From Eledone cirrhosa (lineage: Eukaryota), in the NCBI GenBank assembly GCA_964016885.1, contig OZ024744.1, positions 38,440,001-38,504,000 on the forward strand: a DNA stretch of 64,000 nucleotides, given 5' to 3'. This document shows positions 11,624 to 57,452 of this stretch, in pieces; within the stretch, counting starts at the first letter, position 1, and every line of letters starts with the position of its first letter. The notes under the pieces were generated by a model that saw only the letters and a program-made list of their open reading frames with translations, was not told where the DNA came from and ran no database searches. The position numbers and the translations under genes were made by a program.

Positions 11624-11659
11624 TCTTCTGGTGAAGGACTAGCGTCCGAAACGTTAAGA
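11624..11659 (+). ncRNA. Minimal type I hammerhead ribozyme, PLE-type, core decayed (A6G)
   Basis: TCTT-CTGGTGA-A-GGAC tagc GTCC-GAAA-CG-TT-AAGA; palindromic AACGTT stem III. Downstream sequence recurs at 48247-48428. Confidence 0.6.
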
Positions 11660-13570
11660 CCCCTTTCCAGCTATTTCAAGCGTTAACCTAATATATACCT
11701 TCCATATACTGTACCAATTGTGTTGTTATTTCTGTTTACATTTTACATACATATATATATATAATATGTGTGTGTGTGCGTGTGACTGTGTGTGTGTATG
11801 TGCATGTGTGTGTGTGCGTGTGTGTGTGTGTGTGCGTGTGTGTATGTGCCTGTGTGTGTATTTGTGTGTGGGTGCGCATTCAAGTATTTATGTCCTCAAT
11901 ATGTGTGACTATCCTGTCTGTTCTATTTATTTTTTCTGGCATTGTGTATCTAGTACTACATTATTATAAACGAGTCCTTCCTCTTTTTTAAAAGGTTTGT
12001 TAAATGTGTTTATTTATTACTTTTTTTTGCAACTCTCGACAAAAAAAAAGAAAAGAAAATCATTGAATAGCTAAGGTATAATGGCCTTTTTTTAATTTTT
12101 TATTGGTTAATCTATTTCTTTGTTGGTCATTTGGTTAGTTGATTGGTAGATCGAACAATCGATTTACTATGGGACTATATGTCTACCATATCTTCTATAG
12201 TAAAATCTGGACAAGAAAAATATATGTATTACAAACAATACCAATCAAATCTCCTCTTCTCTCTCTCTCTCCCTCCCTCTCTCTCTCTCACACACACATA
12301 CACACACACACATACACCCACACATACACACACATATATACAGACACACAGATACACATGCATATACTTATATTCTTTACACCATGTGACATAATGCGGC
12401 TCCTTCGACTCCACTATGACTTTACGACCTATGGAAGGATAGACCTAACAACAACCTTCATGACGAACATTTTCCTTTAATCAAATCAATGAAAATCTCA
12501 ATAGCACAACTCTTTTCAATCTGAGTTCAAATCACACTGAAGTCACTTTGTGATTGCTCTGAATTCGAAAAAATAAGTACCTGCAATATATTGGTTTTTA
12601 ACATCGGCACACCGTCACGCGCTTTATGGTAGGTTTTTAATCAGTTTAGAGAAGGTTGAAATCAATTCATGTATTCGGCTGCTATTCTATTTTATCGATC
12701 CTAAAATGTAGAAGACAAAATTGACCTCGACGGGATTTGAACTCAGTGTAAAAATGTCGCAAACAAACATTGGTTTCTAACATTGGCTTTGGCACACGAT
12801 GACGTATGTAACATGGGATATATAATCGATATATATATATATATATATATATTTTTTTTTTTTGCTGGACCGGCATTCACTCTATTTAATCAGCTCTTAA
12901 ATATTACTGGAATTCTTGAAGAACCTAACTTCTATAAACCTCGTCAGAAGCAAGAGAGTGTGTAGTCTTGATAAACGCTAACAAGCGAGAAACAGCTGTC
13001 GCTTACTCTTCTTTGCTTTTGCTGAGAATAAGTAAGTGACATAGTCACTACTTTAAATCTCATAGTGAATGGTCTTCTAAATGTTTTGTAATTAAATATA
13101 CAGTATATTGGCTAATATACTATACATACATTCAGGTATACATCGCTATTTCAGAGCACCTATACTTATATATATATATATATATATATATATATATGTG
13201 TGTGTGTGTGTGTGATATGTGTGTGTGTGTGTGTGTGTGTGTGTGTGTGTGTGTGTGTGTGTGTGTGTGTGTGTGTGTGTGTGTGTGTGTGTGTGTGTGT
13301 AGCAAATGTAGCAAATGTAGCAAATGTAGCAAATGTAGAATTTTATATAAAATGCTTGAAGGAGAGTAGAGAATTATATATAATGGTATATAATTGCCAC
13401 ATTTGGTGGTATGTATGTTGATGTGTGCAGACATCGAGACATACAATTCTAGATATATGAATCTATAGGGGCATAGATGAATATATACAAGACATTTTCC
13501 TCTGCCGGTAATATAAACTCTTCACATTATAGTGAAACATGGTTCTATTTTGAACGTGTTTCGATGTTTA

Positions 13571-14402
13571 TCTATATATTAATTTCAACAATGTCAGTAT
13601 TCCGTGTGTAATAATTCTCGATTATCATTGGTTCATAGGTTTCAAACGACTCCGCCCACCTCAACGACACCAAACTTAAATTAATATGCATAATGCCAAT
13701 GAGAGAGTGAGAGGGGAGAGTAAGAAACAGAGAGGCAGAGTGAACGCTGTAACTATTACTATGCGTGCGCGTATATTTATGTGTGTGTGCGTGCGTGCAG
13801 CGTTCCACAGAAAGTAAAAGCAATTCGACTTTATCAAACAGTGAACTACAGCGGCGTCGGCGTGCAGCCAGGAATGAAGAAAAACGGCTGAACAGCGCCA
13901 TAGGAACGCCCAACTTCAGAGGCGAAGACGTGCCGCCATGAATTAAGAGGAGCTGGCTGAACAACGCCAACGAATTACTGGAGCCAAGCAGCGACGGCGT
14001 GCTGCGATGGTTGAAGACGAACTGGCTGAGCATCATCTTTTATATTAATTATCTATATCTACATATAATATAAAAGATTGGAACTTCCATCATCTTTTTG
14101 AGAAACGTGGAACAACCACGTCTATGCAATGATACACGTTTTACAGTCAGGCAAAAGATGAACCATCTCCTAGAGGTCACTATTCTAGGTGCTCCCAACT
14201 AGAATTGTTCATATACTATGCACATACGGTACAACGAAGAATCTGGTATATTTGGAAGATTTTTTTTACTGTTTTTTGTATCACACAGACACCACAGACT
14301 CGCCTCATAGTGTAACCAGACAAACATCCAATACAGTCATTTTCTCTTACCTGTCTTCTCTTCTCATCTGTTTACCCGGGCGAAGTTGGGTACGTCAGCT
14401 AG
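13571..14402 (+). mobile_element. Non-autonomous Helitron (internal deletion derivative)
   Basis: 5' A|TCTATATAT; R-rich repeats QRRRRAAM..EELAEQR (13830-14035); Pif1 helicase fragment KIGTSIIFLRNVEQPRLCNDTRFTV..HLLEVTIL (14074-14187); 3' CCCGGGCGAAGTTGGG hairpin then CTAG|T. Confidence 0.82.
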
Positions 14403-15264
14403 TAGTTATAATGGTCGGTTTGTATACTTTGATTTGTTCTTTTAATAAACCGTTCTATCCGTAATTATATATCCCTTATAATTTGAACACATATATTCAA
14501 GTATTTTTCTTCCTTGTGTATTATATTTCTCTCTCTCTCTCTCTCTCTCTCTCTCTCTCTCTCTCTCTATATATATATATATATATATATATATACAAGT
14601 GGTGAATCAAAACATCAAATATGTTTAGAATTTTGTGTTATATATATATATATAACTTTATGTATATATTGTTGGTTTTCACTTCAGTTTACTATAAATT
14701 TCCGGTTGGTTGGTTGTTTGGTTCGACAACCAGAAGGTTGTTTATATATTGTCAAAGCTCTTTCGTCACACATTCTGTGACCTCCTCAGTGACTAGGTTT
14801 TTATTTTGTGTTTCTACATTTGGTCTCTCCTACACGACCTTGTTTTTGTGTGTTGTGTGTTGTAGGCTTAGTTTGCGTTACATCCGGGTGTGGTGATAAT
14901 TTATTTACTTATGTGTTAATTTATAATAAATTGAAGTGAAAACAAACAGGTTTTATTGGCAACATGACCCTCCCAAAGTATAACAATACTCTAATCTGTC
15001 CGGGAGATTAATAGTTATTGAAACGATTTGTACATTTTAATTTATTTTTTATCTTGTTCCATAGATTGTATTCGTTATACCAGGGTGGCCTTTCATCCTT
15101 CGTAATTTTAAACACACAATTTACTGTGTTTATATATATATATATATATATATATATATATATATATATATATATATATATATATATATATATATATATA
15201 TATATATATATATATATATATATATATAATATATATATATATATATATAATAATAATAATAATA

Positions 15265-15505
15265 ATAATAATAAATGTGAAGACTAAAATCCAAAGAGGG
15301 CTCGATAAGGATAAATATATATCAAATATATAAGAACCCTAGAGCAAATATTTATCAAAATAACAGATTAAAGTTTAAGCAAAGAATTGCTGCTTTCACT
15401 CTCAATGGGATCTTCTGAACTATACGTATACACATGAGTTTCAGAAGATTCCGTTAAGGGTGAAAGCAGCGATTCTTTGCTTAAACTTTAATCTGTTATT
15501 TTAAT
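15265..15505. mobile_element. Penelope family 2 pLTR end in fold-back arrangement, with a hammerhead on each arm (15372-15421 minus, 15437-15487 plus)
   Basis: Near-identical to 52950-53110 and 55743-55815; arms are inverted around TATACGTATACACATG. Confidence 0.8.
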
Positions 15506-15607
15506 ATATATATATATAAAGAAGAAATTAAAAGATGGTTAAAAAAGATATATATATATACCACTATGTTTAAATTGCCTTATATATCTCATTATGTTTA
15601 AATTGCC

Positions 15608-55620: not shown

Positions 55621-55742
55621 ATTTGTTTTTCCCGTTCTTTGCCGGGGAACGTTTCCACGAACCAAAGTATCGTCTTCCTGTCTTCCTCCGGTTGCAACGT
55701 TTTTTGAAATATCCACTTCTGCGTTTACAGATTGACTTTGTC

Positions 55743-55793
55743 AGTTTCAGAAGATCCCGTTAAGGGTGAAAGCACCGATTCTTTGCTTAAACT
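55743..55793 (+). ncRNA. Hammerhead (CAGAAGA variant) in the inverted pLTR
   Basis: Mirror of 53060-53110. Confidence 0.7.
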
Positions 55794-55987
55794 TTAATCT
55801 GTTATTTTAATAAATATATATATATACACACGTATACATATAAATATATAAATATATACACATACATACACATACCCACAGATATATATATTGATATATA
55901 TATATATATATATATATATATATATATATAAATATATATATATATATATATATATATATATATACACACAAACATACACATACATAC

Positions 55988-56762
55988 TCAGACTCAGAAG
56001 CTCCCGCGTCTTGCGACGCATGAGGCAATCATAGTGTTCCACCGCGTTCGGTCAGCAGCCAGTTGCACAGCGTCCCGCCATTGTCTGTTTGTCGCTCGCA
56101 GGTCCCTCTAAACTGTCTGGCGCCAGTTCATTTTGGGTCGACCTCTCCGTCTGCTTCCCTGTGGGTTCCATTTAAGTACTTCGTTCGCCGGTCTCTCCAG
56201 AGGGAAGTCTCAAAGCGTGCCCAAACCATCCCAGGCGTCGCTTGCAGATGGCAGAAGAGACCAGCTGCTGGTTGGTGCGGTTCCTGACTTCCTGGTTTGA
56301 TACATGGTCACTCCATTTATTCCCCAGCATCTTTCGCAGACACCTGGAATCGAATGCGTCCAACTTCTTCTCTTGGCTGGTCTTAAGGTGCCATGTTTCA
56401 CTTCCGTACAAGAGTGTGGACAGCACGTTGCTGTTGTAGAATCTCATCTTTGATTTGAGGGTGAACTTCCTGCTCTTCCAGATCTTGACAAGCTGGTTAA
56501 ATGCTGCTGAAGCCTTTCCCATTCTACATTGCAATTCACTGTCCATGGCGCCCCCATTGTCAATGGAGCTTCCTAGGCAGGTGAAGTTGTCCACTATCTC
56601 CACCTCCCCCTGTTCAATGAAAACACTAGATGGTGATGGGTGTGTCCCAGATAACATGCTTTTGGTCTTCTTAACACTGATATTGAGACCTAAGCTTCCT
56701 GCTTCGACATTGATATTGTTCATAATGATTTGCAGGTTCGAACGACCACAGGACCAAGACGC
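55988..56762 (-). mobile_element. 5'-truncated RTE (BovB-like) LINE
   Basis: GLNISVKKTKSM, VDNFTCLGS, RMGKASAAF, LLYGSETW, RRLGWFGH; (TCTGAG)n tail. Confidence 0.88.
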
Positions 56763-57390
56763 AAATAGACCACATACATACACATATACGCATATACATA
56801 TAAACGCACGCACACGCAAACATACACATACATACGTACGGCCACTCAAACAAAAACGTACATACACTCATAAAACTACACATATACACAGACACATATT
56901 TACAGTATAAAGATGAAGTACACTCTACATGCGGGAAGAGTAGATAGTTCAGAAGTACTTACATGACCATAGTGCCGTGTTTTGCGTCGAGAGGAGGTAG
57001 GGGTAGGGTGGGAAGGAGTTGGAGGGGTATTTTGTCGAGTGGTTTTTTTTTTAAAAAAGGGAAGTCTTTTTTAGCCATCTGGCATTAACACTTACTCAAG
57101 GTATTTGAAAGTTGCAAAGTTTTTGTGCATGCAATTCAGGCAGTGTTCAGAGAGTTTGTTCAGTAGCAGGCCCTTGGTAAATATATATATATATATATAT
57201 ATATATATATATATATATATATATATATAGAGAGAGAGAGAGAGAGAGAGAGAGGGGGGAGGGAGAGAGAGAGATATACATTGAGAAAACAACACCATAC
57301 TTCGAGACTGGGCATATCAAATGATCGAAATAACAAAGGTAAATTTGTTCCCATCATTATGTTTTCCTGGTTTGTTTTCTGTTCAAGTTC

Positions 57391-57452
57391 TAGCTGTCTG
57401 ATGAGGTCAGAGCTGTTGCCTAATGGTTTTCACCGAAATATATACAAAAGCG
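57391..57452 (+). ncRNA. Degenerate hammerhead candidate
   Basis: CTGATGA-GGTCAGAGC..GTTTTCACC-GAAA-TATAT; stem I (TGT/ACA) is out of register by 1 nt. Confidence 0.4.

What the first reader, a model, noticed from the sequence alone, without database searches (positions are those of the whole stretch)
11624..57452. Hidden census of about 10 distinct hammerhead ribozyme families in 46 kb
Seen: sequence-unrelated type I folds at 11624+, 15608+, 16095-, 17658-, 27907-/32555+, 49052-, 50135-/50677-, 52023+/52625+, the CAGAAGA family (15372-, 15437+, 43562-, 45230-, 53060-, 55743+), and weaker ones at 43071- and 57391+. Nearly all lie a short distance upstream of a (TA)n or other microsatellite boundary. 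Known: PLE pLTRs carry hammerheads, often minimal ones with a palindromic stem III. Inference: this genome may hold a very large ribozyme reservoir; if the region is intronic, sense copies could cleave host pre-mRNA.
Basis: partly seen in the sequence, partly recalled or inferred. Interest (0 to 1): 0.72.

Follow-up and report, generated by a model that had tools for sequence, protein, structure and literature searches.

The report
Dense field of Penelope-element hammerhead ribozymes
This stretch holds about twenty copies, from a dozen repeat families, of a known self-cutting RNA fold that sits at the tail of Penelope-type jumping genes inserted next to TA repeats; the fold is very common throughout this animal genome, and two young, abundant families carry an altered core whose cutting ability is untested.

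Summary
All 19 listed sites are hammerhead-shaped repeat copies (11 families), and two more were missed (12968+, 14789-). Twelve folds pass a strict scan against 0.47 in shuffles. Eight of the 19 copies are decayed. The folds are 3' ends of Penelope-like elements (PLEs): four families tie to Hydra-clade ORFs (one indirectly), one to a Neptune-like ORF, one is a 542-bp ORF-less tandem (retrozyme-like), seven are unassigned. A random 0.8-Mb sample gives 45 perfect-core folds against 0.9 shuffled, about 100,000-280,000 per genome, with (TA)n 3' of 46 of 53. Many HHR families per genome, (TA)n targeting, U3-A8 cores and U-U at the stem II base are all published. Not found in what I read: U4A as the fixed core of a young, abundant family. 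No host exon was found in 264 kb and there is no strand bias, so cleavage of host pre-mRNA is unsupported. A possible genomic footprint of cleavage did not replicate (3 of 158 ends). This scan has noted the same community elsewhere in this genome.

The parts
11624..11659 (+). Minimal type I hammerhead, palindromic stem III; this copy has A6G (family majority CUGAUGA); no ORF link found
   Evidence: 15 CTGATGA vs 4 CTGGTGA of 22 scored tail-seeded copies
12962..13006 (+). Unlisted hammerhead, U3-A8 core, old family (82-89% identity), partly decayed copy
14751..14793 (-). Unlisted hammerhead, canonical core, 4-nt stem III insert (G-N-N-C); abundant family related to the 43071 family
15372..15421 (-). 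CAGAAGA-family copy, stem II broken; head-to-head with 15437+
15437..15487 (+). CAGAAGA (U4A) family copy
15602..15677 (+). Type I hammerhead, long stems; stem III closing pair broken in this copy, intact in most genomic copies; sister subfamily has U4C
16093..16161 (-). Canonical-core hammerhead, palindromic stem III, 3' end of a Hydra-clade PLE
   Evidence: (Hydra EN on the sense strand upstream in 11 of 20 loci)
17045..17318 (-). Hydra-clade endonuclease fragment upstream of the 16093 hammerhead
17658..17695 (-). Minimal hammerhead, U3-A8 core, young family; no ORF link found
27907..28000 (-). U3-A8 hammerhead with full stem III, left end of an inverted Hydra-clade insertion
29101..31440 (.). 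Inverted pair of 5'-truncated Hydra-clade RT/GIY-YIG frames (29101-30129 -, 30059-31354 +), CxCX5C linker
   Evidence: 99% identical arms
32555..32648 (+). U3-A8 hammerhead, right end of the same insertion
43070..43107 (-). Atypical hammerhead (2-bp proximal stem I in the family, broken here), 3' of a Neptune-like PLE ORF in genomic copies
43562..43612 (-). Decayed CAGAAGA-family copy (C3G)
45230..45280 (-). Decayed CAGAAGA-family copy (A9U), 3' of Hydra fragment 46379-46591
49052..49102 (-). Canonical-core hammerhead, U-U at base of a 3-bp stem II, 3-bp stem III; no ORF link shown
49990..51115 (-). Two tandem 542-bp ORF-less units (retrozyme-like) between (TA)n tracts, with hammerheads at 50135-50215 (intact) and 50677-50757 (A9G)
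52020..52075 (+). CCGAAGA (U4C) hammerhead, palindromic stem III; family indirectly linked to one Hydra ORF family
52622..52676 (+). Second CCGAAGA copy, 602 bp downstream
53060..53110 (-). CAGAAGA (U4A) hammerhead at the 3' end of the Hydra element 54005-55759
54005..55759 (-). 5'-truncated Hydra-clade PLE ORF (RT, CxCX5C linker, C-terminal GIY-YIG-type EN)
55743..55793 (+). Inverted CAGAAGA copy at the 5' junction of the same insertion
57393..57450 (+). Decayed copy of a canonical-core family (intact GCTGT/ACAGC stem I and TATATA stem III in genomic copies)

Best explanation
The sites are type I hammerhead folds at the 3' ends of many dispersed repeat families, five of which link to Penelope-like retroelement reading frames (four Hydra-clade, one Neptune-like) and one of which is an ORF-less 542-bp tandem; they likely piled up here because these elements insert at (TA)n tracts and are copied from the 3' end, so even short truncated copies keep the fold. 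Shown: the folds, their excess over shuffles, family structure, covariation, ORF linkage for 5 of 13 families, (TA)n position, genome-wide density. Inferred: that the 7 unassigned families are also PLE ends; that the fold is kept by selection on the active master elements and decays in inserted copies; that it processes tandem transcripts as a dimer or with help from the element's protein; that inserted solo copies do little to host RNA.
For: Excess over shuffles in window and in an independent random sample. Non-circular test: hits chosen only on core boxes plus stem I had stem II in 46 of 58 and a 15.2-16.2 pair in 51 of 58, against 10 of 31 and 7 of 31 in pooled shuffles. Homologues of the 16095 family: 7 pairs with change on both sides, covariation 0.205 vs at most 0.102 for slid partners. 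ORF linkage. Hydra motifs CxCX5C, CxxC, CxH in window frames, DKT in a 95%-identical full-length copy, matching PMC8557442 section 11. (TA)5 within 200 nt 3' of 46 of 53 folds vs 16 of 53 5' and 15% of random positions. Inverted head-to-head junctions as in PLE insertions. Published precedent: PMC4209133, PMC7229834, Hydra HHR table.
Against: Seven of 13 families showed no consistent ORF within the 1.5 kb held. The CCGAAGA link is indirect (4 of 25 loci). No tree was built. Cleavage is untested; U4A, U4C and A6G lie in the CUGA turn, where single changes gave low activity in PMC9901934 (passages). Tail-seeded copies show no excess of 5' ends at the cleavage site (3 of 158). Covariation was formally counted for one family only, and its shuffle control ignores relatedness.
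Confidence: 0.87

Rival explanations
1. The region is an intron and sense-strand copies cut the host pre-mRNA, acting as regulators or as a burden.
For: Six copies have canonical or U3-A8 cores, and three of them have a stem III of 3 or more pairs that could fold as a monomer. Intronic HHRs exist in amniotes (PMC6155905 passages); retrozymes are depleted in Xenopus introns (bioRxiv 10.64898/2026.07.22.740005). At 55-68 folds per Mb many copies must lie in introns somewhere in the genome (inference).
Against: No host-gene Pfam match above cut-off among 263 ORFs in 264 kb; 9 plus vs 12 minus sites; 8 of 19 copies decayed; single minimal HHRs did not cleave in vitro and the Anolis PLE HHR needed its protein.
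Confidence: 0.07
2. The fold is kept for a non-catalytic job (an RNA landmark for the element's protein, or a site where reverse transcriptase pauses or switches template), so catalysis is dispensable and core changes such as U4A are tolerated.
For: U4A is in 20 of 20 and U4C in 22 of 22 scored tail-seeded copies of two young families. HHR mutants did not affect insertion in vitro (PMC11167929). 18 of 29 CAGAAGA tail-seeded copies have their 5' end within 50 nt upstream of the cleavage site, 9 of them at the 5' edge of the fold; 3 of 158 ends at the cleavage site is no more than background.
Against: 45 of 61 folds in the random sample keep a perfect core, including the C3-G8 to U3-A8 swap, across 31-36 sequence clusters, and H17 variation avoids G in the families viewed; this is the signature of selection on catalysis. 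Piling of 5' ends within the fold was not seen in the 11624 and 16095 families. This rival can hold for some families only.
Confidence: 0.25
3. The folds are chance matches in AT-rich, microsatellite-rich DNA.
For: The descriptor is permissive and was tuned on the window; shuffles of the random sample still give about 7 hits at score >=20.
Against: 12 vs 0.47, 45 vs 0.92 perfect cores, independent stem II/III enrichment, fixed position at family 3' ends, covariation.
Confidence: 0.01

Closest known systems
Hammerheads of Hydra-clade Penelope-like elements (Craig et al. 2021, PMC8557442; abstract, passages, section 11 and supplement part 2 read)
   Same: C-terminal EN with CxCX5C linker, CxxC/CxH, DKT; (TA)n insertion; type I HHR near the 3' end; U-U or other non-G-C junction at the base of stem II (most Hydra rows of File S2); inverted 5'-truncated structures.
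   Different: All Hydra cores listed in File S2 read ctga-n-ga; here one Hydra family has CAGAAGA, one linked family CCGAAGA and one UUGAGAA. About 1 kb lies between ORF end and HHR. Only one family per host is tabulated there, against 31-36 clusters per Mb sampled here.
Minimal PLE hammerheads (Cervera and de la Pena 2014, PMC4209133; parts 1-2 of 4 read)
   Same: Many heterogeneous families per genome, mostly solo copies, inverted pairs 100-700 bp apart, palindromic stem III, U3-A8 variant, presumed dimer action.
   Different: Counts reported were about 2,000-9,000 per genome with a stricter descriptor; G10.1-C11.1 was highly conserved there but occurs (direct or after a bulge) in only 12 of 63 folds here.
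Metazoan non-LTR retrozymes (PMC7229834 passages and section 13; bioRxiv 10.64898/2026.07.22.740005 parts 1-2 of 5)
   Same: The 50135/50677 family: tandem ORF-less units, one type I HHR each, GC 39%, PLE-like ends; same 541-542 bp spacing at 6 of 18 other loci.
   Different: Unit is 542 bp, above the 150-450 bp of the first paper but inside the 51-972 bp of the second; circular RNA not tested; circular fold only moderately stable (z -2.5).
Natural hammerhead core variants (Perreault et al. 2011, PMC3088659; section 8 and passages)
   Same: U3-A8, U10.1-U11.1 and U4C are described as natural variants; U4C lowers activity in vitro but supports viroid infectivity.
   Different: The string U4A does not occur in that main text; here U4A is fixed in a family with about 12 copies per Mb sampled.

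Membership tests
Type I hammerhead ribozyme | CUGANGA (or U3-A8) and GAAA boxes with UH site | tested here: met
   Met in 6 intact window copies and as family majority in 9 of 11 listed families; not met at U4 in the CAGAAGA and CCGAAGA families
Type I hammerhead ribozyme | Three helices in order stem I - core - stem II - GAAA - stem III - UH - stem I | tested here: met
   the 43071 family has only a 2-bp proximal stem I
Type I hammerhead ribozyme | Compensatory changes in the stems | tested here: met
   (16095 family: 7 pairs, 12 cells changed on both sides); seen by eye in the 49052 and 57391 families, not counted
Type I hammerhead ribozyme | Site-specific self-cleavage | not testable with these tools
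   No RNA holder listed; genomic 5'-end footprint not replicated
Type I hammerhead ribozyme | Match to an Rfam hammerhead model | tested here: inconclusive
   None among the best 150 of 234 matches shown; 84 not shown
Hydra-clade PLE | RT followed by C-terminal GIY-YIG-type EN in one ORF | tested here: met
   Window frames align to residues 183-713 of full-length homologues; Pfam gave no family for them
Hydra-clade PLE | CxCX5C linker; CxxC and CxH around the conserved E and N | tested here: met
   Read in both window elements; 51, 48 and 51 of 53 full-length homologues
Hydra-clade PLE | DKT and RWK motifs | tested here: met
   DKT in L017 (95% identical to the window ORF), L280, L055; RWK in L048, L193, but RWR in L017; window copies are truncated before these motifs
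Hydra-clade PLE | Insertion into (TA)n and HHR near the 3' end | tested here: met
Hydra-clade PLE | Placement in the Hydra clade of an RT tree; length under 3 kb | not tested
   No tree built; no full-length element assembled
Neptune/Nematis-type PLE (43071 family) | C-terminal EN with CX2-5CxxC linker | tested here: inconclusive
   CX4CX2C linker and YIGET-type EN read in L243; clade name is my reading of motifs described, no reference alignment
Non-LTR retrozyme (50135/50677 family) | Tandem ORF-less low-GC units each with a type I HHR | tested here: met
   (longest ATG frame 26 aa, GC 39%)
Non-LTR retrozyme (50135/50677 family) | Expressed as circular RNA | not testable with these tools
   No RNA run listed
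Non-circularly permuted hammerheads (type SGC/CSG/GCS, PMC10085705 passages) | Blocks in SGC, CSG or GCS order | tested here: not met
   Strict six-order scan: none in the window or in 1.0 Mb; the scan is strict (it recovered only 7 type I folds per Mb) and would miss weak-stem forms

The most novel reading that the evidence does not exclude
The CAGAAGA (U4A) core is an undescribed, working natural hammerhead variant, rescued by dimer formation or by the element's protein, in a genome whose hammerhead load (10^5 or more, tens of families) is among the densest known; its family and canonical-core sister Hydra families form a natural paired test of whether PLE hammerheads must cut to spread.
Probability: 0.2. 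Interest if true: 0.55.

Novelty: new member of a known kind. Interest (0 to 1): 0.33.

Why it matters
The role of PLE hammerheads in vivo is open: catalytic mutants still insert in vitro and no cleavage-site reads were found in Anolis (PMC11167929). This genome offers tens of related families with canonical, U3-A8, U4C and U4A cores that have all amplified, so activity can be compared with amplification success. The load is large: 55-68 detectable folds per Mb here, against about 4 per Mb from the axolotl figures (up to 120,000 copies; 28.2 Gb), though descriptors differ. If even a small share of sense-strand intronic copies cut, a genome-wide strand bias should be measurable. The window itself is an ordinary, somewhat dense sample of that load.

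Tried and rejected
1) Genomic footprint of cleavage: incidental copies showed 13 5' ends at -2..+1 of the cleavage site and none at -10..-3 (276 ends; nominal P 0.001). A targeted test with tail-only queries in six families gave 3 of 158 (0/29, 1/29, 0/25, 2/25, 0/25, 0/25), about what the neighbouring density predicts. Rejected; part of the first pile comes from a local palindrome in the CAGAAGA tail and from one inverted pair counted twice. An earlier version was swamped by microsatellite matches and is not used. 2) Naiad identity for the 43071 family: rejected, the EN is C-terminal. 3) Non-G-C junction at the base of stem II as a novelty: already the rule in published Hydra HHRs. 4) A6G as a family trait at 11624: minority (4 of 22, all four from one 0.6-Mb region). 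5) Permuted hammerheads in the window: none. 6) Host gene: none found. 8) Lunse et al. 2017 on PLE hammerhead variants is not held, so U4A may be described there; searches that did not turn up U4A in a hammerhead paper; host-group searches. 9) repeat finder was dominated by microsatellites and served only for the inverted arms. 10) The strand test used a miscount (10/11); the true tally is 9 plus, 12 minus, also without evident bias.

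
Full report
Setting. The window is G000:C28:38440001-38504000 of a 3.0-Gb genome. It is rich in microsatellites (111 tandem-repeat rows) and in broken retroelement frames. An earlier AI note calls the host a cephalopod; I did not test this.

Observation. I read all 19 listed sites and wrote a type I hammerhead scanner. It found 13 folds, 12 scoring >=20, against 0.47 +- 0.61 in 100 local dinucleotide shuffles. The scanner was adjusted after a first pass with the sites in view, and it misses several listed sites, so I tested it on fresh DNA: 80 of 120 randomly drawn 10-kb stretches (57 of 80 on the four largest contigs, which hold about 54% of the genome). 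There it found 61 folds against 7.0 in 12 shuffles and 45 perfect cores against 0.92. In a test that does not select on stems II and III, 58 hits per 1.0 Mb (random plus flanks) were chosen on core boxes and stem I alone; 46 had stem II and 51 a 15.2-16.2 pair, against 10 and 7 of 31 hits pooled from 10 shuffles. Rfam showed no hammerhead among the 150 of 234 matches listed, so standard models do miss these.

Families and state. Ten listed families were searched in the genome and each filled the 40-candidate ceiling; these are lower bounds. Comparing window copies with genomic copies shows 6 intact canonical or U3-A8 copies, 5 copies with a family-type U4 change, and 8 decayed or minority copies. 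Two further families are present, at 12968+ and 14789-. The 14789 type is abundant but invisible to my scanner, so densities are lower bounds.

Covariation. Fourteen non-redundant homologues of the 16095 family, picked by sequence similarity, give 95% paired cells, 7 pairs and 12 cells changed on both sides, and a covariation score of 0.205 against at most 0.102 for slid partners. Two further alignments were viewed but not counted; in the 49052 family the stem II loop varies while stems hold, with one compensatory stem I change.

What carries them. The 53060- fold lies about 1 kb 3' of the frame 54005-55759, and 55743+ is its inverted partner; the same ORF family ends upstream on the sense strand in 5 of 30 loci including the window, and starts 226 nt downstream in L017. 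The 27907-/32555+ pair caps a 4.7-kb inverted insertion with two 99%-identical frames. The 16095 family has an endonuclease end upstream in 11 of 20 loci. These frames have 1,461 homologues and carry CxCX5C, CxxC, CxH and, in longer copies, DKT, the marks of the Hydra clade (PMC8557442 section 11). The CCGAAGA family sits inverted beside one further Hydra ORF family in 4 of 25 loci, an indirect link. The 43071 family follows an RT with a CX4CX2C linker and C-terminal EN, which I read as Neptune-like. The 50135/50677 pair is a 542-bp tandem with no ORF over 26 codons, repeated at that spacing in 6 of 18 other loci: retrozyme-like. Seven families showed no consistent ORF in the 1.5 kb held.

Position and load. 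In the random sample (TA)5 lies within 200 nt 3' of 46 of 53 folds, 5' of 16, and after 15% of random positions. Bootstrap estimates are about 165,000 perfect-core folds (95% range 101,000-240,000) or 202,000 with variants (131,000-285,000); 65 folds fall into 31-36 sequence clusters; the window's 12 compares with 4.9 expected (P 0.023) and 15 in the 200-kb flanks.

Variant cores. U3-A8, U10.1-U11.1 and U4C are published natural variants (PMC3088659), and the stem II junction seen here is usual in Hydra HHRs. U4A is in 20 of 20 tail-seeded copies with a scorable core and 8 of 8 in the unbiased 1.0 Mb; U4C is in 22 of 22. The U4A family has 12 matches in that 1.0 Mb and many identical copies, so it is young and abundant. 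One locus holds a related fold with canonical U4 (L027). Single changes in the CUGA turn gave low activity in a mutational scan (PMC9901934). I did not find U4A in what I could read, but Lunse et al. 2017 was not available.

Mechanism. Most likely the fold belongs to the element's pLTR and processes tandem transcripts as a dimer or with protein help (published models and assays; inferred here). Copying starts at the 3' end at a (TA)n target and is often cut short, so short tails with the fold dominate, often as head-to-head pairs. Inserted copies then decay. I looked for a record of cleavage in 5' ends: a first pile of 13 ends at the site was not reproduced with tail-only queries (3 of 158), in line with the report that uncut RNA is the main template. 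In the CAGAAGA and 49052 families many 5' ends fall within or at the 5' edge of the fold, but not in the 11624 and 16095 families.

Host effect. After masking repeats, 263 of 267 ORFs >=55 aa in 264 kb were scanned; above-cut-off matches were transposon domains only (RT, RNase H, endonuclease, PIF1, DUF6451, STPR-like weak). Sites lie 9 on + and 12 on -. No RNA run was listed. The intron idea is neither shown nor excluded.

Earlier notes of this scan report the same community on other pieces of this genome and permuted hammerheads in some families; none lies near this window or matches the U4A fold. A strict scan for permuted orders found none here.

Verdict. A real, well-supported census of known PLE-type hammerheads. 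What is added is a density estimate, a retrozyme-like 542-bp family, and two young families with fixed U4 changes. New member of a known kind; interest 0.33.

Noticed in passing
L341-L370, L426-L450; window 15372-15487: 5' truncation and inversion points cluster within or at the 5' edge of the hammerhead in two families (18 of 29 CAGAAGA copies within 50 nt upstream of the cleavage site, 9 at -49..-43), giving head-to-head mini-palindromes; not seen in the 11624 and 16095 families.
   Followed up: partly
L155, L284, L080, L296, L009: A sister subfamily of the 27907/32555 hammerhead has core CUGAGAA (C3 opposite A8) in several copies, where the window subfamily has U3-A8.
   Followed up: no
window 11230-11300 (-): Truncated 3' half of a 27907/32555-type hammerhead.
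   Followed up: no
window 32800-32995: About 90-bp inverted arms around a (TA)n tract; draws sub-threshold miRNA matches in Rfam; probably another head-to-head repeat end.
   Followed up: no
window 35726-36539: 22 copies of a 37-bp minisatellite, 91% matches.
   Followed up: no
window 59504-62952 (-): Nearly whole non-LTR retrotransposon: 871-aa RT/zf-RVT frame with an upstream endonuclease frame; decayed relatives at 38-2468, 20438-21738 and near 38000.
   Followed up: no
window 3358-8426 (-): Non-LTR element with PHD fingers, endonuclease, RT and RNase H in broken frames.
   Followed up: no
window 25530-27583 (-): Broken RT-like frames of another non-LTR element with no Pfam match.
   Followed up: no
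L165:4895-7655 (about 55 kb left of the window): PIF1 helicase frames, probably a Helitron.
   Followed up: no
window 58008-58802, 46954-47201: Long (TAG)n (265 units) and (ATC)n (83 units) tracts.
   Followed up: no
L009, L036, L199 and others: Hammerheads of different families face each other across one short (TA)n tract, i.e. nested insertion at the same target.
   Followed up: no
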